Positions 5,787 to 60,622 of a DNA stretch of 64,000 nucleotides are shown in pieces. Under the pieces are notes generated by a model, which worked only from the letters and a program-made list of their open reading frames with translations, searched no databases and was not told the origin of the DNA. The DNA is from Candidatus Omnitrophota bacterium (GTDB taxonomy: Bacteria; Omnitrophota; Gorgyraeia; Gygaellales; Profunditerraquicolaceae), in the NCBI GenBank assembly GCA_025453445.1, contig JALOQJ010000001.1, positions 9,155 to 73,154 of the forward strand, given 5' to 3'. A program made the position numbers and the translations under genes. The stretch's first letter is position 1. Every line of letters starts with the position of its first letter.

Positions 5787-6282
5787 GCGGATCTTGTAAT
5801 TCCACCACGTCGAGGACTTCTTCGTATGCTTGAAGGATCTGCGGGTTGTCTTTTAAAACCTTTAACTGTTGGGGAGAATTTAAAAAGTCGGTTAAATACT
5901 GCACATAATCTTTGAATTCCTGACTGTTTGCTTTCTCAGCGACATATGGACAATTTAAATCAATAGTGAGGAGTATTTTTTTATCCCTGAAGGCAATAAG
6001 AAACGGATAGAGCTGGCATTCAAACGGCCGGGTTGCATAAATTTTACATTTATTATCTTCCAGGTTAAGAAACGGACAAACAAAACTTTTATTTCCTATA
6101 TCGGGAATCGGAATGATTTTTTTTTCTATTGAGATATTCACCGCGGGAATCCCCGGCCGGTCTGCTAATTCCAGCATTTCTTCTTCCAAAAGACAAGGCG
6201 ACCAGGCTGATTCCTGTTTTTGGAATCGGCAGCAGCCACGGCATTCCAAACAAGCACTCTCTGCAACAAACTGCTTGATCAC
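5773..6282 (-). CDS. YkgJ-family CxxCxxCC putative zinc/iron-chelating protein
   Basis: Has the CLECRGCC motif and additional Cys pairs; 169 aa. Confidence 0.6.
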   Translation of the reverse strand: MIKQFVAESACLECRGCCRFQKQESAWSPCLLEEEMLELADRPGIPAVNISIEKKIIPIPDIGNKSFVCPFLNLEDNKCKIYATRPFECQLYPFLIAFRDKKILLTIDLNCPYVAEKANSQEFKDYVQYLTDFLNSPQQLKVLKDNPQILQAYEEVLDVVELQDPHEIK

Positions 6283-45435: not shown

Positions 45436-46013
45436 AGAAAAAAGGAACAGTATTTGTAATCTCCGGGCCTTCCGGTTCGGGCAAAACCACATTATTAAAA
45501 AATGTCCTGCGGGATAAAGTTTTGCGCAGGAAACTGGCACATTCGGTTTCTCTGACTACCCGGCCGAAAAGATCTTGTGAAAGAAATAAAAAAGATTATT
45601 TTTTCGTCAGTGAAAAGGAGTTTAAGGCGCAGCTGAAGCAGAAAAAAATCCTTGAATGGACCAGGTATTTAGGGTATTATTACGCCACGCCAAAAGGGCC
45701 TGTTGATGAACAGCTCCGAGGCGGAAAAAGTATTGTTTTGTGCCTTGATTTAAAAGGCGCCCGTCGGATCAGGCAGCTTTATCCGAGAAATAACCTGACG
45801 ATTTTTGTTAAGCCTCCGACGCTGCGAGTGCTGACGCAAAGGATTCAAAACCGCTGCCATAAAACCAAAGCCCTGGAAATTACTGAGCGGGTAAAACTGG
45901 CCAGGCAGGAAATGTTGGCGGCGCGCCATTACGATTATTGCCTGATTAATCAGGATCTGGAATGCGTTACCCGGGAATTAAAAGATATAATATTAGCAAA
46001 CCTGAAAGTTTAA
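45432..46013 (+). CDS. gmk: Guanylate kinase
   Basis: P-loop GPSGSGKTT and TTRPKR motif. Confidence 0.9.
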   Translation: MKKKGTVFVISGPSGSGKTTLLKNVLRDKVLRRKLAHSVSLTTRPKRSCERNKKDYFFVSEKEFKAQLKQKKILEWTRYLGYYYATPKGPVDEQLRGGKSIVLCLDLKGARRIRQLYPRNNLTIFVKPPTLRVLTQRIQNRCHKTKALEITERVKLARQEMLAARHYDYCLINQDLECVTRELKDIILANLKV

Positions 46014-46031
46014 AAAGAAGGAAGGTATAAT

Positions 46032-46238
46032 ATGGAATATGTTGCCTTGGAGAATCTTATAGATAAGACCAATTATTCAATTTATAAATTAGTAATTTTG
46101 GCGGCAAAACGGGCTTTGGAAATTGCTGAGGGCCAGCCCAAGCTCGTCGCTGTCAGCGCCTCGTTAAAGCCTTCTACGATTGCCCTGTTTGAGATTGCCG
46201 CCGGCTGCATACAATACAAAAAATCCAAGGTTGATTAA
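46032..46238 (+). CDS. rpoZ: DNA-directed RNA polymerase subunit omega
   Basis: 68 aa with KLVILAAKRALEIAEG. Confidence 0.85.
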   Translation: MEYVALENLIDKTNYSIYKLVILAAKRALEIAEGQPKLVAVSASLKPSTIALFEIAAGCIQYKKSKVD

Positions 46239-46777
46239 TGGCAAGAGAAAAAAATGTTTTGTTAGGCGTGACAGCGAGCATTGCTATATATAAAGCCTGC
46301 GACATAGTGCGTAAACTACGTGCGGAATCTTTGCAGGTTACAGTAGCAATGACCAAAGAAGCAGAGGAGCTGATCCGGCCGATAGTTTTTCAAAGTTTAA
46401 GCGGTAATAAAGTTTACCGGGGTTTATTTCAGGAACCGGAAGCGTGGGAAATAGAGCATATTGCTTTGGCAGAGAAAGCGGATTTAGTTTTGATTGCGCC
46501 GGCAACAGCAAATATTATCGCTAAATTTGCCAATGGAATTTGCGATGATTTATTAACTTGTGTAGTTGCAGCAATTAAAGCGCCGGTCGTAATTGCTCCG
46601 GCGATGAATACCAACATGTACCAGAATAAAATTGTCCAGGCAAATATCAAGAAATTACAGAATAATGGTTATAAATTTGTCGGGCCAAGAGAAGGTAAAC
46701 TTGCCTGTGGCAAAGAAGGCGTTGGTTGCTTGGCTAGCGTAGAAGAAATTGTAAAAGAAGTTAGAAAGATTCTTTGA
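46238..46777 (+). CDS. coaC: Phosphopantothenoylcysteine decarboxylase (flavoprotein CoaC domain only)
   Basis: 179 aa with VLLGVTASIAIYKA. No CoaB ligase half precedes the downstream tRNA-Cys. Confidence 0.75.
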   Translation: MAREKNVLLGVTASIAIYKACDIVRKLRAESLQVTVAMTKEAEELIRPIVFQSLSGNKVYRGLFQEPEAWEIEHIALAEKADLVLIAPATANIIAKFANGICDDLLTCVVAAIKAPVVIAPAMNTNMYQNKIVQANIKKLQNNGYKFVGPREGKLACGKEGVGCLASVEEIVKEVRKIL

Positions 46778-46792
46778 AATAGAACTTAGTGC

Positions 46793-46864
46793 GGCGCGGT
46801 AGCCAAGAGGTAAGGCGACTGTCTGCAAAACAGTTATTCAGCGGTTCGATTCCGCTCCGCGCCT
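46793..46864 (+). tRNA. tRNA-Cys (anticodon GCA)
   Basis: Acceptor GGCGCGG/CCGCGCC, anticodon loop CUGCAAA, T-loop UUCGAUU. Confidence 0.9.
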
Positions 46865-46946
46865 CTGAATTTCCTTGCTATTACAAAGCGAGGGAATCCA
46901 TCTCGAGCGCCGTCTATTTTAAGGGTTCGCGAGGGACAAATAATAT

Positions 46947-47615
46947 ATGCCCGCTAAAAGAAAAGAATTAAAAATCGAAGGTGCGAATCTCTGGTACTTG
47001 GTGGGGTTAATTACTAGCGACGGGTGTTTGTCCGGAGACGGCAGACATATTGATATTACTTCAAAGGACTATGAATTTCTGAGCAGATTAAAAGATACAT
47101 TAGGTTTTACGAATAAAATTGGCACTAAAAATAACGACAGGGTTAACCAGGCATATTATTTACAATTTTCGAATAAGAATTTTTATGAATTTTTAGTATC
47201 AATAGGTTTAACACCAAATAAATCCTTAAGCTTAAGTAGTCTTAATATCGCCAAAGAGCTTTTTGGTGATTTTTTTAGGGGCTTGATTGATGGCGATGGA
47301 TCTATTCGCCGGTGGGTGCACCCCTCCAATAATAATGAACAGTGGAGCTTAAGAATTTATTCGGGCTCCGAAAAATTTATTAATTGGTTAAATATAGCAG
47401 CAGAACAATTATTAAAAGTTCGTGGCAAAGTGCATAAAAATGCGAATAATACGTGGGTATTGAAATACGGCAAAATGGCCGCGAAACAGATTGCAGAACA
47501 ATGTTATTATAAAGACTGTTTCGGTTTAGACAGAAAAATAAAATTAGCCCAAGAATGCATTCATTCATACGCGGGCTGGAGTAAAAGTAAGACAATTAGT
47601 CCGTTTTGCTCCTAG
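46947..47615 (+). CDS. Double-motif LAGLIDADG homing endonuclease
   Basis: Two motifs: LVGLITSDGCL and FRGLIDGDGSI. Ends 7 nt before tRNA-Leu. Confidence 0.8.
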   Translation: MPAKRKELKIEGANLWYLVGLITSDGCLSGDGRHIDITSKDYEFLSRLKDTLGFTNKIGTKNNDRVNQAYYLQFSNKNFYEFLVSIGLTPNKSLSLSSLNIAKELFGDFFRGLIDGDGSIRRWVHPSNNNEQWSLRIYSGSEKFINWLNIAAEQLLKVRGKVHKNANNTWVLKYGKMAAKQIAEQCYYKDCFGLDRKIKLAQECIHSYAGWSKSKTISPFCS

Positions 47616-47622
47616 AAAATTT

Positions 47623-47705
47623 GGGCAGGTGTCGGAATGGCAGACGATGGGGACTTAAAATCCCCCGCTCGTAAGAGCGTGAGGGTTCAACTCCCTCCCT
47701 GCCCA
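47623..47705 (+). tRNA. tRNA-Leu (anticodon TAA), class II long variable arm
   Basis: Anticodon stem-loop GGGGA-CUUAAAA-UCCCC and variable arm GCUC-GUAA-GAGC. Confidence 0.9.
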
Positions 47706-47871
47706 TGAGTATTTTTTGAAAATATGGCAGTGAGTGAGCGTTAACGACCCGACAAGGGCCGTAGCGAGCGCAGTGCCTTGGTTGGTTTTGACAGAAGATT
47801 ACTCCCTCACAGCTTGATAGGAAAATTGAGTTCGGGATCAATTTTCAGAAGGTTAATAGCGGGAAAATTGA

Positions 47872-47888
47872 GGGCTCATAGCTCAGTT
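47872..47888 (+). pseudogene. tRNA 5'-end fragment (GGGCTCATAGCTCAGTT) with no matching 3' half
   Basis: The first 17 nt are typical of Ala/Ile-type tRNAs. The sequence then diverges into a CCGCC-GTAG-GGCGG hairpin. Confidence 0.3.
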
Positions 47889-47933
47889 TCCGCCGTAGGC
47901 GGGTTCGCCTGCAGCTGGAATAGATGAATTATA

Positions 47934-48010
47934 GGGCGGTTAGCGCAGTTGGTTAGCGTACCACATTGACATTGTGGTGGTCACTGGTTCGAGTCCAGTA
48001 CCGCCCACCA
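47934..48010 (+). tRNA. tRNA-Val (anticodon GAC), CCA encoded
   Basis: Acceptor GGGCGGU/ACCGCCC, anticodon loop UUGACAU. Confidence 0.9.
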
Positions 48011-48016
48011 GATAAT

Positions 48017-48616
48017 ATGTTAGAAAAACAGCTGTTACAAAAACTTTATTACACTGAAAAACTTTCTATGTTAGAAATAGCCAAAGTTTTATCTTTGACC
48101 CCGGCTACTGTCAAGTATTGGATGGATAGACATCAACTCAATCGCCGTTCTGGCAGCGACAGTGCTTATGTAAAACAGAATCCAGAAGGAGACCCTTTTG
48201 CAATTAAGGGCAGCTTAACAAATAGAGACAGAGAGTTATTTATATGTGCCTTAATGTTATATTGGGCAGAAGGTAGCAGAAAAAACAAACATGTTATTCA
48301 GATAGCAAATTTAGATCGAAGAATGCTTCTGCTGTTCACGAGGTTCTTAAAAACTATTTGTGGGGTCAGAGAAGAAAAAATTTGTCTTACCGTTCAGCTT
48401 TTTAGAAAATTCGACGTAAGTAAGACTAAAAATTATTGGTCGAGAGAACTGGGTATTACCAAACGCTTTATAAAGGTTAATATTCATACTGATATAAGAA
48501 GCAAACCAAACCAGCAATGGTCTCAATACGGGATTGCCCGCATAGAGGTACGTAACGTAAAATTGAAGCAGTGGCTCGATAGTGCATTAGAGAAATATTT
48601 AACCAAATGGCTTTAA
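48017..48616 (+). CDS. HTH plus single LAGLIDADG-like domain protein (homing-endonuclease-related)
   Basis: N-terminal HTH (LSMLEIAKVLSLTPATVKYW). A motif LMLYWAEGS resembles a LAGLIDADG variant. The downstream fold resembles the C-terminal half of the 46947 protein. Starts 6 nt after tRNA-Val. Confidence 0.5.
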   Translation: MLEKQLLQKLYYTEKLSMLEIAKVLSLTPATVKYWMDRHQLNRRSGSDSAYVKQNPEGDPFAIKGSLTNRDRELFICALMLYWAEGSRKNKHVIQIANLDRRMLLLFTRFLKTICGVREEKICLTVQLFRKFDVSKTKNYWSRELGITKRFIKVNIHTDIRSKPNQQWSQYGIARIEVRNVKLKQWLDSALEKYLTKWL

Positions 48617-48617
48617 T

Positions 48618-50336
48618 ATGGACTTAAATATTTTAAGACATTCTTGTTCGCATGTGATGGCTAAAGCCGTAAAAGAGCTTTGGCCGGAGGCTAAATTAGG
48701 AATCGGCCCTTCGATTGAAGACGGTTTTTATTATGACTTTGATAAAAGCGAGCCGTTTTCCGACGATGATTTAGCTAATATCGAAAAGAAAATGCGCCAG
48801 ATCATTGCTAAAAATGAATCCTTCGTGCGCGAAGAATTAACTAAATCCGCTGCTATTAGTTTGTTTGAAAGCCTGAAAGAAGATTATAAAGTGGACCTGA
48901 TAAAAGCATTGCCCGATGATAAGGTATCTATTTATAAAACCGGCGATGATTTTATAGATCTCTGCCGCGGGCCGCACCTGAATTCTACAGGAGAGATTAA
49001 AGCTTTTAAATTATTATCGGTTGCCGGCGCTTACTGGCACGGGATAGAAACCAATCCTATGTTGCAGAGGATCTACGGCACCTGTTTTGAAACACAGAAA
49101 GAAATAGACGAGTATTTAAAAAATTTGGAAGAAGCAAAAAAGCGCGACCACAGAAAAATCGGGCCGCAATTAGGTATTTTTGATATCTATTATGAAGAAG
49201 CTGGTGCAGGCCTTGTGTTTTATCATCCTAAAGGTGCAATATTGCGCACGCTGATTGAAAATTACGAAAAAATGGAACATTACAAGCGCGGCTATCAGAT
49301 GGTGATTACTCCGCATATTATGCAGGCAGGGTTATGGCAGACTTCCGGGCATTACGATTATTATAAAGAAAATATGTATACTTTAAAAATCGAGGACCGG
49401 GAATTTGTTTTAAAGCCGATGAACTGCCCCGGGCACATTCTGATTTATAAATCTCAGACGAGAAGTTACAAAGATTTGCCTTTGCGCCTTTTTGAGCTGG
49501 GCACAGTTTATCGCCATGAAAAAGCCGGAGTCCTGCATGGCTTGTTGCGCGTGCGCGGATTTACCCAGGACGACGCGCACATATTTTGTTTGCCTGCGCA
49601 GTTGAAACCGGAGATTAAAGCAGTGATTGATTTTGTTTTTGATACAATGAAAACCTTTGGTTTTAATGAAGTCGGCATCGAGCTTAGTACGCGGCCGGAA
49701 AAATATATCGGCTCAGATGAAGACTGGATCAGGGCAACAGCTGCTTTGGAAGAATCCCTGAAAGAAAAAAGCTTAAGCTATGAGATTAATGAAGGAGACG
49801 GTGCTTTTTACGGCCCTAAGATTGATATCAAATTAAAAGATGCCCTGAAAAGGACATGGCAATGTGCAACCATCCAATGCGATTTTGCCCTGCCGAAAAG
49901 GTTTAATCTGGAGTATGTTGATAGCGACGGGCAGAATAAGCAGCCGATTATGCTGCATCGCGTGCTTTTAGGCAGCCTAGAGCGTTTTACCGGCGCATTG
50001 ATCGAACATTATGCCGGAGCGTTTCCGGTTTGGCTTGCTCCTGTGCAGGTTGTGATTATTCCGGTTAATGAATCTGTGGATGATTATGCCGGTGTTGTAA
50101 AAAAGAAGTTGGAAGATAAGTCTATTAGAGTTATGATGAGCAACGGCAGCGATACCTTAAATAAGCGCATCCGTAATGCCGAAGTCGAAAAAATTCCCTA
50201 TGCTTTGATTGTTGGCGAGCGCGAAGCCCAGGCAGGCGCAGTAGCAGTACGCAAAAGAAGCAAGGGTGATACAGGGACAATGGCGATAGATGATTTTATC
50301 AGGCAAATTACAGAAGAGATAGACAACAAACAATGA
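48618..50336 (+). CDS. thrS: Threonine--tRNA ligase (short form lacking the TGS N-terminus)
   Basis: Class II core with HRDLRV-like RGFTQDDAHIF and a C-terminal anticodon-binding domain. Confidence 0.9.
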   Translation: MDLNILRHSCSHVMAKAVKELWPEAKLGIGPSIEDGFYYDFDKSEPFSDDDLANIEKKMRQIIAKNESFVREELTKSAAISLFESLKEDYKVDLIKALPDDKVSIYKTGDDFIDLCRGPHLNSTGEIKAFKLLSVAGAYWHGIETNPMLQRIYGTCFETQKEIDEYLKNLEEAKKRDHRKIGPQLGIFDIYYEEAGAGLVFYHPKGAILRTLIENYEKMEHYKRGYQMVITPHIMQAGLWQTSGHYDYYKENMYTLKIEDREFVLKPMNCPGHILIYKSQTRSYKDLPLRLFELGTVYRHEKAGVLHGLLRVRGFTQDDAHIFCLPAQLKPEIKAVIDFVFDTMKTFGFNEVGIELSTRPEKYIGSDEDWIRATAALEESLKEKSLSYEINEGDGAFYGPKIDIKLKDALKRTWQCATIQCDFALPKRFNLEYVDSDGQNKQPIMLHRVLLGSLERFTGALIEHYAGAFPVWLAPVQVVIIPVNESVDDYAGVVKKKLEDKSIRVMMSNGSDTLNKRIRNAEVEKIPYALIVGEREAQAGAVAVRKRSKGDTGTMAIDDFIRQITEEIDNKQ

Positions 50337-58132: not shown

Positions 58133-58320
58133 TAAAGAGACAGTTATTTGATATAAATTCCCTGCAGTGCCCGTTAGGAAATAGATGATTGGTGATCCAA
58201 CACCAAAATCAAGGGGGTCACATGCTTCTTTAGCGCTTCGGCTCTAGAGAGACGACTCCCACCTGAATCCAAGTAGGTTCAGCCAATCATGTCCAACGGC
58301 ACAGGCGGGGATTTTTTTTA
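58133..58320 (+). ncRNA. ssrS: Structured small RNA, candidate 6S RNA (SsrS)
   Basis: About 180 nt between the promoter and a GGCGGGG+U8 terminator. The ends pair (CCCUGC.../...GCGGGG, AUGAUUGG/CCAAUCAU). The 3' side of a central bubble carries the internal hairpin CACCUGAAUCCAAGUAGGUUCAG, which resembles the E. coli 6S CACCUUGAACCAAGGGUUCAAGG. The 5' bubble strand is A/C-rich and unpaired. The apical stem is capped by a UUCG loop. Confidence 0.45.
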
Positions 58321-60223: not shown

Positions 60224-60622
60224 ATGACAAGGATTATTGATGCTCATGGCCTCTTAGTTTTCTTGGAAAAAGAGGCTGGTTACGAAAAGGTGGAGCAATA
60301 TTTTATTTCTGCAACAGAGAAAGAGAAACAATTATTAATGGCTTCTGTGAATTTTGGAGAAGTATATTATATTGTCTTACGTGAATGTGGCCAAGAGAAA
60401 GCCCATGAAATAGAAAAAATAATCAGGACTTTACCTATCGCCATAGTTGATGTAGATATGCAGCTTGCTAGAGAAGCCGCTCGTTTTAAAGCCAGTCACA
60501 AAATATCATATGCTGACTGTTTTGCCGCCGCCTTAGCAAAGCTGCACAAAGGCGAAGTTATAACAGGAGATAAAGAGTTTAAAACAATAGAACAAGAGGT
60601 AAAAATCGCATGGATAGCCTAG
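60224..60622 (+). CDS. PIN-domain toxin (VapC-like)
   Basis: 132 aa with acidic residues in PIN positions: IIDAH, SYADCFAAALA, ITGDKEF. Confidence 0.75.
   Translation: MTRIIDAHGLLVFLEKEAGYEKVEQYFISATEKEKQLLMASVNFGEVYYIVLRECGQEKAHEIEKIIRTLPIAIVDVDMQLAREAARFKASHKISYADCFAAALAKLHKGEVITGDKEFKTIEQEVKIAWIA

What the first reader, a model, noticed from the sequence alone, without database searches (positions are those of the whole stretch)
46238..48616. Two LAGLIDADG endonuclease genes embedded within a tRNA array, with a truncated coaBC and a tRNA 5' fragment
The order is tRNA-Cys, a double-motif LAGLIDADG gene (GLITSDG / GLIDGDGS), tRNA-Leu(UAA) 7 nt later, a 228-bp spacer holding a 17-nt tRNA 5' fragment (GGGCTCATAGCTCAGTT), tRNA-Val(GAC), and 6 nt later an HTH plus LAGLIDADG-like gene, followed directly by thrS. 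Free-standing LAGLIDADG genes packed between tRNAs are unusual in bacteria; the family normally resides in inteins or group I introns of rRNA and tRNA. Immediately upstream, the normally bifunctional coaBC is represented only by the 179-aa CoaC half, ending 15 nt before tRNA-Cys. This is consistent with an insertion or rearrangement at this site.
Basis: partly seen in the sequence, partly recalled or inferred. Interest (0 to 1): 0.65.

Follow-up and report, generated by a model that had tools for sequence, protein, structure and literature searches.

The report
Homing-endonuclease cassettes that overwrite tRNA genes
Two selfish DNA-cutting-enzyme genes sit in a tRNA gene cluster of an uncultured Omnitrophota bacterium, and comparison with about 160 related loci indicates that each spreads by breaking a resident tRNA gene and pasting in itself plus a fresh, altered copy of that tRNA.

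Summary
tRNA-Cys, a double-motif LAGLIDADG gene (LAG1, 46947-47615), tRNA-Leu(UAA), a 227-nt spacer, tRNA-Val(GAC), an HTH plus single-domain LAGLIDADG gene (ORF2, 48017-48616) and thrS lie as described.

Both genes behave as mobile free-standing homing endonuclease genes:
- In a sample anchored on coaC, only about 15-20% of close relatives carry LAG1 and about 14% carry ORF2, independently. The closest relative (L078) has neither.
- LAG1 divergence is decoupled from host divergence. Between near-identical hosts only the LAG1 core drops to about 60% nucleotide identity.
- Each gene is linked to a distinct allele of the adjacent tRNA.
- Orphan tRNA fragments flank the insertions. In seven relatives LAG1's ATG is the D-loop ATG of a truncated tRNA-Leu.

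Inferred mechanism: intronless homing into tRNA genes by cassettes that carry a replacement tRNA.

No group I intron is present. coaC is not truncated by this event: coaC and coaB are separate genes across the phylum, and coaB is also absent here in endonuclease-free relatives.

This is a new variant of a known kind; the nearest precedent is phage T4 SegB. Cleavage was not tested.

The parts
46793..46865 (+). tRNA-Cys(GCA). Left flank and probable left homology arm of the LAG1 cassette. Its allele differs from that of the closest LAG1-free relatives, with compensatory changes in the acceptor and anticodon stems.
   Evidence: tRNA-Cys is the upstream neighbour of LAG1 in 58 of 63 loci.
46866..46946 (+). 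81-nt leader of LAG1, with GAGGGA 10 nt before the ATG. It may contain a badly decayed remnant of the tRNA-Leu 5' end (GGGACAAATAATAT-ATG versus GGGCAAGTGGTGGA-ATG). This remnant is not demonstrated.
   Evidence: In 7 relatives the same position holds an intact 19-24-nt tRNA-Leu 5' fragment.
46947..47615 (+). LAG1: a free-standing, monomeric double-motif LAGLIDADG homing endonuclease gene (222 aa). Both motif aspartates (D25, D117) are invariant in 25 aligned homologues.
   Evidence: I-Tsp061I, 2dch, 1.5e-6; phrog_4645 endonuclease, 6e-33. Mobility.
47622..47706 (+). tRNA-Leu(UAA), a LAG1-linked allele with a GGGCAGG acceptor and a 'b'-type D-arm and anticodon stem. Interpreted as the functional replacement or immune copy that travels with LAG1.
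   Evidence: This allele type was seen only next to LAG1 (8 of 8). LAG1-free relatives mostly carry GGGCAAGTGGTGGAATGGCATACAC (39 of 50).
47707..47871 (+). Spacer partly homologous to the tRNA-Leu/tRNA-Val spacer of L078. It contains a hairpin-forming element (core CCCGACAAGGGCCGTAGCGAGCG at 47748-47770) that occurs twice after ORF2 in L150.
47872..47888 (+). Orphan 5' fragment (positions 1-17) of the resident 'S-type' tRNA-Val(GAC) gene. It is the scar left where the ORF2 cassette entered.
   Evidence: unique, expected 0.01. (identical to the first 17 nt of the intact tRNA-Val of the closest relative L078).. Analogous scars in L136, L139 and L150.
47889..47933 (+). 45-nt leader of the incoming ORF2 cassette, between the scar and the replacement tRNA-Val.
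   Evidence: It has no counterpart in L078.
47934..48010 (+). tRNA-Val(GAC), an ORF2-linked 'R-type' allele (GGGCGGT...ACCGCCC). It is the functional replacement copy carried with ORF2.
   Evidence: None of 14 ORF2+ loci has the GGGCTCA acceptor, against 61 of 88 ORF2-less loci (Fisher 6e-7).
48017..48616 (+). ORF2: a free-standing endonuclease gene (199 aa). It has an N-terminal sigma-70-region-4-like HTH and one LAGLIDADG domain (motif GLMLYWAEGS; L81, Y82, E85 and G86 invariant), presumably acting as a homodimer. The LAGLIDADG domain is not recognised by Pfam.
48618..50336 (+). thrS: right flank and right homology arm. Identity to L078 returns to about 90% exactly at its start codon.

Best explanation
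The segment 46.8-48.6 kb holds two independent, free-standing LAGLIDADG homing-endonuclease cassettes lodged in the conserved Cys-Leu(UAA)-Val(GAC) tRNA array of an Omnitrophota genome.

Each cassette is an endonuclease gene physically coupled to a complete, sequence-altered copy of one tRNA gene:
- LAG1 lies 6 nt upstream of tRNA-Leu(UAA).
- ORF2 lies 6 nt downstream of tRNA-Val(GAC).

Proposed cycle (intronless homing):
1. The enzyme cuts the resident allele of that tRNA gene in a genome lacking the cassette. The cut is somewhere between the D-loop and the variable/T region.
2. The break is repaired from cassette-bearing DNA. The neighbouring conserved tRNA genes and thrS serve as homology arms.
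3. The endonuclease gene and its linked, presumably uncleavable but functional tRNA allele are copied in, so the cell keeps an essential tRNA.
4. Imprecise repairs leave orphan 5' or 3' pieces of the old tRNA.
5. Later the endonuclease gene decays or is deleted, and the site can be re-invaded by a divergent allele.

Shown here: protein family and fold, conserved catalytic residues, presence/absence at fixed sites, decoupling from host phylogeny, in-situ allele replacement, tRNA-allele linkage, tRNA scars, and decayed copies.

Inferred, not shown: that the proteins cleave DNA, that the tRNA gene itself is the target, that the linked alleles are immune, and how donor DNA reaches recipient cells.
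For: **Enzymes**
- LAG1 is a two-domain LAGLIDADG_3 protein with both motif aspartates invariant. It is related to I-Tsp061I and to a phage endonuclease family.

**Sporadic occupancy of fixed sites**
- Among 80 metagenome loci anchored only on coaC, 50 have tRNA-Cys directly followed by tRNA-Leu (spacer 4-707 nt). Nine have LAG1, and four more show LAG1 running off a contig end.
- ORF2 is present in 7 of 50 loci, independently of LAG1.
- The three closest genomes show three states: the window is +/+, L077 is -/+ and L078 is -/-.

**Horizontal replacement**
- Distances among the flanking genes correlate with one another at r = 0.6-0.9. LAG1 correlates with them only at r = 0.30-0.46.
- LAG1 distance stays at about 0.3-0.45 from host distance 0.06 to 0.55.
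- L002 versus L019: flanks are 90-95% identical in nucleotides, the LAG1 core 47-68%.
- The window and L077 are 15% apart in host genes, yet their ORF2 proteins are only 48% identical.
- Window versus L078: 85-92% nucleotide identity everywhere except 46.7-48.6 kb.

**tRNA linkage**
- LAG1 with B-type tRNA-Leu: 9 of 9, against 11 of 50 in empty sites (Fisher 1.3e-5).
- ORF2 with the GGGCTCA-type tRNA-Val: 0 of 14, against 61 of 88 (6e-7).

**Scars**
- The window's 17-nt fragment equals the 5' end of L078's tRNA-Val.
- In L136 the cassette is bracketed by S-type 5' and 3' fragments. L139 and L150 carry 3' fragments after ORF2.
- A-type tRNA-Leu 5' fragments of 15-28 nt abut LAG1 in about 10 loci. 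In 7 of them the D-loop ATG is LAG1's start codon.
- A-type 3' fragments follow the complete tRNA-Leu in L011 and L017.

**Decay.** Frameshifted or truncated LAG1 copies occur in L062, L065-L071 and L129, and a frameshifted ORF2 in L137.

**Same site in other phyla.** The tRNA-Cys-LAG1-tRNA-Leu trio, or LAG1 with one of those two tRNAs, occurs without any other synteny in Elusimicrobia and 'Deltaproteobacteria' MAGs: L057, L058, L063, L064.

**Hot spot.** Other endonuclease genes occupy the other junctions of the same array: a third LAGLIDADG paralogue before tRNA-Cys, and HNH genes before tRNA-Val.

**Precedent.** T4 SegB is a free-standing endonuclease in a tRNA cluster that recognises a tRNA T-psi-C motif and drags neighbouring tRNA genes along (PMC2330249).
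Against: - No biochemical evidence of cleavage or of target identity exists.
- The allele linkage is statistical, not absolute. About 8 of 66 intact LAG1 loci sit beside the 'sensitive' a-type tRNA-Leu. Eleven of 50 empty sites carry the B type. Twenty-seven of 88 ORF2-less loci carry non-S tRNA-Val.
- These exceptions fit loss after invasion or differing specificities. They equally weaken the claim that the tRNA gene is the target.
- The host tree from coaC+rpoZ is poorly resolved at 27-31% distance, so some phylogenetic confounding of the associations cannot be excluded.
- tRNA-Val 5' fragments also occur in many ORF2-less loci. Some scars may therefore come from other elements, such as the HNH genes, or have another origin.
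- Most LAG1 copies are intact and as conserved as housekeeping proteins (mean pairwise distance 0.43, against 0.42 for coaC). This could also reflect a host-beneficial role.
- No transfer vehicle was found: one distant viral relative of LAG1 and none of ORF2.
Confidence: 0.72

Rival explanations
1. The two proteins are domesticated LAGLIDADG DNA- or RNA-binding factors (WhiA-like regulators, or maturase-like tRNA processing helpers). They would be vertically inherited as part of the tRNA operon and serve the host.
For: - Position is very constant and the spacing to tRNAs is tight.
- Protein conservation is similar to housekeeping neighbours.
- Most copies are intact.
- ORF2 carries a regulator-like HTH.
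Against: - Both genes are absent from about 80% or more of close relatives, including the nearest one.
- LAG1 phylogeny is decoupled from the host, and the allele has been swapped between near-identical hosts.
- Decayed copies exist.
- The catalytic acidic residues are invariant, whereas to my knowledge WhiA lacks them.
- tRNA scars and tRNA-allele linkage are unexplained by a regulator.
Confidence: 0.1
2. They are relics of group I intron-encoded or intein-encoded endonucleases. A tRNA-Leu(UAA) intron, as in cyanobacteria, would have lost its ribozyme and left the ORF beside the tRNA.
For: - To my knowledge, tRNA-Leu(UAA) is the classic bacterial host of a group I intron.
- In 7 relatives LAG1 begins inside a tRNA-Leu 5' fragment.
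- The closest solved relative is intron-encoded (I-Tsp061I).
Against: - Rfam finds only tRNAs in 46-49 kb at E<=1, with no group I core.
- The fragment ends at tRNA positions 19-28 (D-loop to the start of the anticodon stem), not in the anticodon loop where, to my knowledge, the cyanobacterial intron sits.
- A complete, uninterrupted tRNA-Leu follows the ORF.
- ORF2 lies outside its tRNA.
- There are no intein splice blocks or host extein: both ORFs have their own start and stop codons.
Confidence: 0.06
3. The region is merely a recombination or insertion hot spot. Unrelated genes accumulate there through integrase-mediated or illegitimate events, and the LAGLIDADG genes are passive cargo that do not drive their own spread.
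For: - Other cargo occurs in the same intergenic gaps in relatives: a NotI-type restriction-modification pair, a Bro-N protein, a pilin-like gene and a T2SSE ATPase.
- tRNA-Val 5' fragments exist without ORF2.
Against: - No integrase or transposase accompanies the 0.7-kb inserts.
- Each LAGLIDADG family keeps one precise junction across more than 100 loci and across phyla.
- The same junction (D-loop ATG) recurs with divergent LAG1 alleles.
- At least three nuclease families are concentrated at tRNA borders.
Confidence: 0.1
4. The pattern is an artefact of metagenome assembly or binning, such as chimeric contigs at repeated tRNA genes.
For: Nearly all data are MAG or metagenome contigs. tRNA genes are repeats at which assemblers can mis-join.
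Against: - The same architecture appears in more than 150 independent assemblies, in single-cell genomes (L035, L047) and in closed chromosomes (L007 CP070837, L057 CP064976).
- The window's own arrangement is reproduced in three independent contigs from different samples.
Confidence: 0.02

Closest known systems
Phage T4 SegB (GIY-YIG free-standing homing endonuclease in the T4 tRNA gene cluster; PMC2330249)
   Same: It is a free-standing endonuclease gene embedded among tRNA genes. Its recognition sequence includes a conserved tRNA structural motif. It spreads itself together with neighbouring tRNA genes into relatives that lack it (intronless homing with co-conversion).
   Different: - It belongs to a different nuclease family (GIY-YIG, not LAGLIDADG).
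- It lives in a phage genome and spreads during co-infection, not in a bacterial chromosome.
- To my knowledge no truncated target tRNA plus full replacement copy has been described for it.
- SegB activity is demonstrated; here activity is inferred.
Intronless homing by other T-even Seg/Mob endonucleases (reviewed in PMC3984707)
   Same: The gene sits between conserved genes. Cleavage of the endonuclease-less allele is followed by repair from the endonuclease-bearing allele. Polymorphisms next to the gene confer immunity.
   Different: Those are phage systems with GIY-YIG or HNH enzymes and protein-coding targets. Here the context is cellular, the presumed targets are tRNA genes, and the enzymes are LAGLIDADG.
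Archaeal and organellar intron-encoded LAGLIDADG enzymes (I-Tsp061I, I-DmoI; homodimeric I-CreI, I-MsoI, I-CeuI)
   Same: - The fold and motif chemistry are the same.
- LAG1 matches I-Tsp061I by sequence.
- LAG1 has the monomeric two-domain layout; ORF2 has the one-domain layout, presumably homodimeric.
   Different: Those enzymes reside in group I or archaeal introns of rRNA genes. Here there is no intron or intein. ORF2 also adds an N-terminal HTH and is too divergent for any Pfam LAGLIDADG model.
WhiA (domesticated LAGLIDADG plus HTH transcription factor)
   Different: To my knowledge WhiA has two degenerate LAGLIDADG domains without catalytic acidic residues and a C-terminal HTH, and is ubiquitous and vertically inherited in Gram-positives. 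ORF2 has one domain with an invariant glutamate and an N-terminal HTH, and is sporadic.
tRNA-gene-targeting integrative elements (phage, ICE or genomic-island attP carrying the tRNA 3' end)
   Same: Insertion is into a tRNA gene, and the element carries sequence that restores a functional tRNA. Orphan tRNA fragments are left as scars.
   Different: Those elements use tyrosine or serine recombinases and duplicate only the 3' portion. Here there is no recombinase, the cassette carries a whole divergent tRNA gene, and the driver is presumed to be double-strand-break repair.
Free-standing LAGLIDADG ORFs among tRNA genes in fungal and algal organelle genomes (for example PMC5626475, PMC6506933, listed)
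   Same: These are LAGLIDADG ORFs outside introns and near tRNA genes, linked to genome plasticity.
   Different: The setting is organellar. To my knowledge no systematic pairing of one endonuclease family with one tRNA species and a replacement tRNA allele has been described. I did not read these papers in detail.

Membership tests
LAGLIDADG endonuclease superfamily (LAG1) | One or two LAGLIDADG helices, each ending in a conserved acidic residue followed by Gly | tested here: met
   LVGLITSDG and FRGLIDGDG are present. D25/G26 and D117/G118 are invariant in 25 homologues. PF14528 scores 7e-14 with two stretches.
LAGLIDADG endonuclease superfamily (LAG1) | Sequence or structure relationship to characterised enzymes | tested here: met
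   I-Tsp061I (2dch) at 1.5e-6 over residues 15-148. phrog_4645 'endonuclease' at 6e-33. No structure was predicted for LAG1.
LAGLIDADG endonuclease superfamily (ORF2) | alpha-beta-beta-alpha-beta-beta-alpha core fold | tested here: met
LAGLIDADG endonuclease superfamily (ORF2) | Motif with catalytic acidic residue | tested here: met
   In GLMLYWAEGS, residues L81, Y82, E85 and G86 are invariant in 30 sequences, including relatives at only 25-28% identity. No Pfam LAGLIDADG model matches, so membership rests on fold plus motif.
LAGLIDADG endonuclease superfamily (both) | Mg2+-dependent site-specific DNA cleavage leaving 4-nt 3' overhangs | not testable with these tools
   Requires enzyme assays.
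Homing endonuclease gene (functional class: selfish, mobile) | Presence/absence polymorphism at one precise genomic site among related genomes | tested here: met
   LAG1 is present in 9-13 of about 60 coaC-anchored loci and ORF2 in 7 of 50. The empty sites are clean.
Homing endonuclease gene (functional class: selfish, mobile) | Gene phylogeny incongruent with host; horizontal replacement | tested here: met
   r is 0.30-0.46 for LAG1 against neighbours, versus 0.6-0.9 among the neighbours. LAG1 distance is flat against host distance. Nucleotide identity is mosaic. This is a distance-based test only; no tree reconciliation was done.
Homing endonuclease gene (functional class: selfish, mobile) | Co-conversion of flanking markers, or immunity polymorphism in the occupied allele | tested here: met
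   tRNA-Leu and tRNA-Val alleles are associated with occupancy (Fisher 1.3e-5 and 6e-7). There are exceptions.
Homing endonuclease gene (functional class: selfish, mobile) | Degeneration and loss phase of the homing cycle | tested here: met
   Frameshifted or truncated copies occur in L062, L065-L071, L129 and L137. Some empty sites retain the cassette-type tRNA-Leu (11 of 50).
Homing endonuclease gene (functional class: selfish, mobile) | The enzyme cleaves the empty allele and not its own | not testable with these tools
   Inferred only from scars that place the break between tRNA positions about 12-28 and 46-66.
Group I intron-encoded endonuclease | ORF embedded in a group I ribozyme (P3-P9 core) that interrupts a host gene | tested here: not met
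   Rfam at E<=1 on 46000-49000 finds only three tRNAs and chance hits. The tRNAs are uninterrupted.
Intein-encoded endonuclease | In-frame insertion in a host protein with splicing blocks (N-terminal Cys/Ser ... C-terminal His-Asn) | tested here: not met
   Both ORFs are free-standing, each with its own ATG and stop codon, between tRNA genes. There are no Hint/intein Pfam hits above threshold.
WhiA family | Two degenerate LAGLIDADG domains lacking catalytic residues plus a C-terminal HTH; universal vertical inheritance | tested here: not met
   LAG1 hits PF14527 only at 0.0016, below the cut-off. ORF2 has one domain, an N-terminal HTH and a conserved Glu. Both are sporadic.
Bifunctional CoaBC (the claim of truncation) | Fused N-terminal flavoprotein (CoaC) and C-terminal DFP (CoaB) domains in one polypeptide in relatives | tested here: not met
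   Relatives have a stand-alone coaC of 174-179 aa. Where coaB is present, it is a separate gene overlapping coaC by 4 nt. The 120 best CoaB homologues are all about 200-250 aa with the DFP domain only.

The most novel reading that the evidence does not exclude
Chromosomal LAGLIDADG genes in Omnitrophota, and sporadically in other phyla, form a class of 'tRNA-replacing' homing cassettes.

- Each endonuclease family is dedicated to one tRNA species. It destroys the resident gene and installs a recoded, compensatorily mutated but functional copy.
- tRNA genes thus serve at once as target, as immunity determinant and as near-universal homology arms that permit homing across species and even phyla.
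- Successive invasions by divergent alleles would drive unusually fast, compensatory turnover of tRNA stems. They would also make the Cys-Leu-Val array a permanent arena for at least three or four nuclease families.
- In the pristine junction LAG1 borrows its start codon from the tRNA-Leu D-loop. It would then be expressed only when correctly inserted in a transcribed tRNA operon.
Probability: 0.45. Interest if true: 0.75.

Novelty: new variant of a known kind. Interest (0 to 1): 0.62.

Why it matters
If the mechanism holds, it shows how a homing endonuclease can colonise an essential, intron-free RNA gene in a cellular chromosome without killing the host: it brings a spare, immune copy of the gene.

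- It extends intronless homing, known mainly from T-even phages, to bacterial chromosomes and to the LAGLIDADG family.
- It offers an explanation for orphan tRNA fragments and for sharply different tRNA alleles among close relatives in uncultured lineages.
- It implies that tRNA genes can act as cross-species homology arms for gene flow.

On the practical side, it points to two large untapped sets of natural meganucleases with predictable, conserved targets of about 20 bp. LAG1 has 891 detected homologues. The ORF2 family has at least 185 clusters at E<1e-30, and its nuclease domain is invisible to Pfam.

It also removes a false lead: the short coaC is a lineage trait, not damage from the insertion.

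Tried and rejected
- **Group I intron in the spacer or around the ORFs.** Rfam at E<=1 gave only tRNAs. Rejected.
- **Phylum-wide domesticated gene.** The first genome scan, seeded with LAG1 itself, suggested universal conservation. That was an ascertainment artefact, and the coaC-anchored scan reversed the picture.
- **One LAG1 clade per tRNA-Leu allele type (specificity classes).** LAG1 clusters do not sort by the adjacent tRNA type. Not supported.
- **Anticodon stem as the sole discriminator for ORF2.** The association is weaker (0/14 versus 38/88, p = 9e-4) than for acceptor positions 5 and 7 and position 26. The target position remains unresolved.
- **Phage vector.** The IMG/VR scans found one 31%-identical LAGLIDADG relative and nothing for ORF2.
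- **coaB elsewhere in the window.** None found. Whether the genome has coaB at all could not be determined.
- **Remnants of LAG1 in long empty spacers.** tblastn at 1e-4 found none. The L092 spacer holds a pilin-like ORF instead.
- **Literature.** No paper in the library links Omnitrophota to homing endonucleases in substance.

Full report
**1. What is in the window**

ARAGORN and Rfam place three tRNA genes: tRNA-Cys(GCA) at 46793-46865, tRNA-Leu(UAA) at 47622-47706 and tRNA-Val(GAC) at 47934-48010. Two ORFs lie between and after them.
- LAG1, 46947-47615, 222 aa.
- ORF2, most plausibly starting at ATG 48017 and ending at 48616, 199 aa.

Upstream are gmk, rpoZ and a 179-aa coaC. Downstream, 1 nt after the ORF2 stop, are thrS, infC, rpmI and rplT. 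The source is an uncultured Candidatus Omnitrophota bacterium. The identical LAG1 protein and arrangement occur on three independent contigs.

**2. The two proteins**

LAG1
- It hits Pfam LAGLIDADG_3 twice (7e-14), the archaeal intron enzyme I-Tsp061I (1.5e-6) and a phage 'endonuclease' PHROG (6e-33).
- In an alignment of 25 homologues both motifs are conserved, and the motif-terminal Asp-Gly pairs (D25/G26, D117/G118) are invariant.

ORF2
- It has only weak HTH hits in Pfam and NCBIfam.
- Its 30-sequence alignment shows an invariant L-Y-x-x-E-G in GLMLYWAEGS.
- The AlphaFold model (pLDDT 90.6) consists of a small helical HTH domain followed by an alpha-beta-beta-alpha-beta-beta-alpha domain.
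- ORF2 is therefore a one-domain, presumably homodimeric LAGLIDADG protein with an N-terminal HTH. That HTH resembles the one on phage HNH endonucleases.
- A full HMMER profile search finds at least 185 cluster representatives at E<1e-30. None of the members tested has a Pfam LAGLIDADG hit.

**3. A first, misleading picture**

A scan of one genome per species, seeded with LAG1, returned 71 loci. In nearly all Omnitrophota among them the order is ndk-yicC-gmk-rpoZ-coaC-tRNACys-LAG1-tRNALeu(UAA)-tRNAVal-thrS-infC-rpmI-rplT.
- LAG1 is followed by tRNA-Leu(UAA) in 67 of 67 cases.
- It is preceded by tRNA-Cys in 58 of 63 cases.

That looks like a phylum-wide housekeeping gene, but the sample was selected for LAG1.

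**4. The unbiased sample**

A metagenome scan anchored only on coaC gave 80 loci from close relatives, with coaC 68-86% identical.
- Fifty have tRNA-Cys followed directly by tRNA-Leu, with a spacer of 4-707 nt.
- Only 9 have LAG1 there, plus 4 in which LAG1 runs off the contig end.
- ORF2 is present in 7 of 50 loci where tRNA-Val to thrS is visible, independently of LAG1.
- The window's nearest relatives show all combinations: the window is LAG1+/ORF2+, L077 is -/+ and L078 (thrS 92% identical) is -/-.
- Window and L078 are 85-92% identical in nucleotides on both sides. Identity collapses only between the end of coaC and the thrS start codon.

**5. Decoupling from the host**

- Pairwise protein distances of seven flanking genes correlate with each other at r = 0.6-0.9. 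LAG1 correlates with any of them at only 0.30-0.46.
- LAG1 distance is nearly flat (0.30-0.47) across host distances from 0.06 to 0.6. Control genes rise steadily.
- Hosts that differ by 6-9% carry LAG1 proteins that differ by 31-41%.
- For L002 versus L019 the flanks are 90-95% identical in DNA, while the LAG1 core is 47-68%. The breakpoints lie inside the ends of the ORF.
- The ORF2 proteins of the window and L077 are only 48% identical, although the hosts differ by 15%.
- Decayed copies exist: frameshifts or large deletions in L062, L065-L071, L129 and L137.
- Outside Omnitrophota, LAG1 relatives (41-52% identity) again sit beside tRNA-Cys and/or tRNA-Leu(UAA), with no other shared synteny (L057, L058, L063, L064).

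These are the signatures of the homing-endonuclease cycle: invasion, fixation, decay, loss and re-invasion.

**6. Linkage to tRNA alleles**

*tRNA-Val(GAC).* ORF2-less loci mostly start GGGCTCATAGC... (61 of 88). None of 14 ORF2+ loci does; they start GGGCG(G/C/A)(T/A)T or GGACCCG. Fisher p is 6e-7, with further discriminating positions at tRNA positions 7, 26 and 66.

*tRNA-Leu(UAA), coaC-anchored sample.*
- All 9 LAG1+ loci carry a 'B' allele (GCCGGGG...).
- Thirty-nine of 50 empty sites carry an 'A' allele (GGGCAAGTGGTGGAATGGCATACAC...). Fisher p is 1.3e-5.
- The window has a third type: a GGGCAGG acceptor with a B-like D-arm and anticodon stem. This type was seen only next to LAG1, in 8 of 8 loci.

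The linkage is not absolute. About 8 of 66 intact LAG1 loci sit beside an A-type core, and LAG1 clusters do not sort by tRNA type.

**7. Scars**

It is identical to the first 17 nt of the intact tRNA-Val of L078 and of most ORF2-less relatives. It lies 45 nt upstream of the window's complete, different tRNA-Val allele. The resident gene was therefore broken after position 17, and a unit of leader + new tRNA-Val + ORF2 was installed.

*Other ORF2 loci tell the same story*.
- In L136 the unit is bracketed by an S-type 5' fragment (GGGCTCATAGCT) and a degenerate S-type 3' fragment.
- L139 has an S-type 3' fragment (positions about 46-77) right after ORF2.
- L150 has a 3' fragment of yet another allele.

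*LAG1.*
- About 10 loci have 15-28-nt 5' fragments of tRNA-Leu immediately upstream.
- In seven of them (L001, L020, L032, L069, L087, L129, L152) the sequence reads GGGCAAGTGGTGGA-ATG-GC..., so the ATG of the tRNA D-loop is the LAG1 start codon.
- L021 and L042 carry B-type 5' fragments instead.
- A-type 3' fragments (CAACTCCCTCCTTGCCCA) follow the complete tRNA-Leu in the LAG1+ loci L011 and L017. They also occur in the LAG1-free loci L078, L096 and L103, which suggests past invasions.
- In most LAG1+ loci no scar remains and LAG1 starts 5-15 nt after tRNA-Cys. That is what clean homologous repair through the flanking tRNAs would give.

*Where the break falls.* The scars place the lost part of the target between positions about 12-28 and 46-66, from the D-loop to the variable/T region. 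The exact cut sites are unknown. The discriminating tRNA-Val positions 5, 7 and 26 are roughly symmetric around position 16-17, where the fragments end. That would suit a homodimeric enzyme on the D-arm pseudo-palindrome, but this is inference only.

**8. Mechanism proposed**

I propose intronless homing of 'endonuclease + replacement tRNA' cassettes into tRNA genes, with the neighbouring tRNA genes and thrS as homology arms.

The nearest documented system is phage T4 SegB. It is a GIY-YIG enzyme encoded in the T4 tRNA cluster, recognises a 27-bp site containing the tRNA T-psi-C motif, and transfers itself and nearby tRNA genes into T2-type phages (PMC2330249). Intronless homing in general is reviewed in PMC3984707.

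Four things differ here: the LAGLIDADG family, a cellular chromosome, dedication of each family to one tRNA species, and carriage of a complete divergent tRNA gene. I found no paper describing this in Omnitrophota.

The array is a general arena for such genes.
- A third LAGLIDADG paralogue (24-29% identical to LAG1) sits just upstream of tRNA-Cys in L037, L048, L086, L104 and L112.
- HNH endonuclease genes sit upstream of tRNA-Val in L011 and L017.

**9. The coaC question**

- A stand-alone coaC of 174-179 aa is present in every relative, whatever the endonuclease content.
- In deeper lineages a separate coaB (DFP domain, about 216 aa) follows it, overlapping by 4 nt.
- The 120 best CoaB homologues in the database are all single-domain proteins, mostly from Omnitrophota.
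- The gene was therefore already split. coaB is missing from this site in the whole clade, including the endonuclease-free L078.
- It is not in the 64-kb window. Whether the genome has it elsewhere is open.

**10. Limits**

- No activity or target has been measured.
- The allele associations have exceptions and may be partly confounded by a poorly resolved host tree.
- Some tRNA-Val fragments occur without ORF2.
- No vehicle for DNA transfer was identified.
- The high conservation of intact copies leaves room for a host-beneficial side role.

**Verdict**

This is a new variant of a known kind.

Noticed in passing
L086:4542-5231, L104:4594-5247, L112:1200-1784, L037:2528-3106, L048:4234-4842: A third double-motif LAGLIDADG paralogue (24-29% identical to LAG1; PF14528) sits between coaC/rpoZ and tRNA-Cys, ending at or just before the tRNA. 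It marks a third endonuclease docking site in the same array. It is absent from the window.
   Followed up: partly
L011:6718-7362, L017:5818-6732 (also L011:5880-6713, Bro-N): HNH homing-endonuclease genes lie in the tRNA-Leu/tRNA-Val spacer of two relatives, one of them with 'homing endonuclease associated repeats'. The window's 227-nt spacer could be what remains after such an insertion.
   Followed up: partly
window 47726-47777 (core 47748-47770); L150:5919-5941 and 6008-6030: A hairpin-forming element (GGCAGTGAGTGAGCGTTAACGACCCGACAAGGGCCGTAGCGAGCGCAGTGCC) lies in the spacer. The same core occurs twice downstream of ORF2 in L150 and nowhere else in the window. It may be a small repeat or terminator travelling with these cassettes.
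   Followed up: partly
L078:4863-4880, L096:4732-4795, L103:4889-4906: Orphan 3' fragments of tRNA-Leu lie downstream of the intact tRNA-Leu in LAG1-free loci, including the window's closest relative. This suggests that 'empty' sites were invaded and cleared in the past.
   Followed up: partly
L018, L045 (two copies), L086, L091, L097, L103, L144, L146 (coordinates): 15-16-nt 5' fragments of tRNA-Val (GGGCTCATAGCTCAG) occur upstream of the intact tRNA-Val even where ORF2 is absent. They are either scars of other or older elements, or a short motif with its own function. This is unexplained.
   Followed up: no
window 63487-63561 (- strand): A second tRNA-like gene is called Val(GAC) by ARAGORN with the anticodon at an unusual offset (Rfam 53.8 bits). 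It has a long A-rich D-loop and a C at position 33. It lies next to a 786-aa ORF (60610-62970) of unknown function. Its identity is uncertain.
   Followed up: no
window 58156-58315 (+): A 6S/SsrS RNA gene (Rfam 61.9 bits, above the gathering score).
   Followed up: no
window 48618-50336: ThrRS is 572 aa and starts directly at the editing/SAD region, so no N-terminal TGS domain is present. The same holds in all relatives. It matches the TIGR00418 model end to end.
   Followed up: no
window 46777/46793; L007:4276-4926, L161:4001-4669, L162:4001-4663: coaB, a separate gene after coaC in deeper Omnitrophota lineages, is missing from this locus in the window's whole clade and from the 64-kb window. 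In some lineages a type IV pilin-like gene follows coaB.
   Followed up: partly
L006:6570-8359; L003:5893-6966, L086:6791-7867, L092:5568-6701; L092:4623-5138: Other cargo fills the same intergenic gaps in relatives: a NotI-like restriction enzyme with a D12 methyltransferase, a T2SSE/CpaF-like ATPase between tRNA-Val and thrS in several lineages, and a pilin-like ORF between tRNA-Cys and tRNA-Leu.
   Followed up: partly
P0182, P0187, P0189 and others: The ORF2 profile also hits 400-820-aa proteins made of 6-14 tandem copies of the same HTH module, a repeat architecture I did not examine.
   Followed up: no
window 47622-47706: The tRNA-Leu scored 51.6 bits when 3 kb was searched. It was not listed in the whole-window gathering-threshold run, presumably dropped by a speed filter. 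ARAGORN finds it in both cases.
   Followed up: no
P0029, P0046: Some database versions of ORF2 carry an N-terminal extension (...GSNPVAPT...). This is the translated T-arm and 3' end of tRNA-Val, so gene callers read through the tRNA. It is a recurrent mis-annotation for this family.
   Followed up: no
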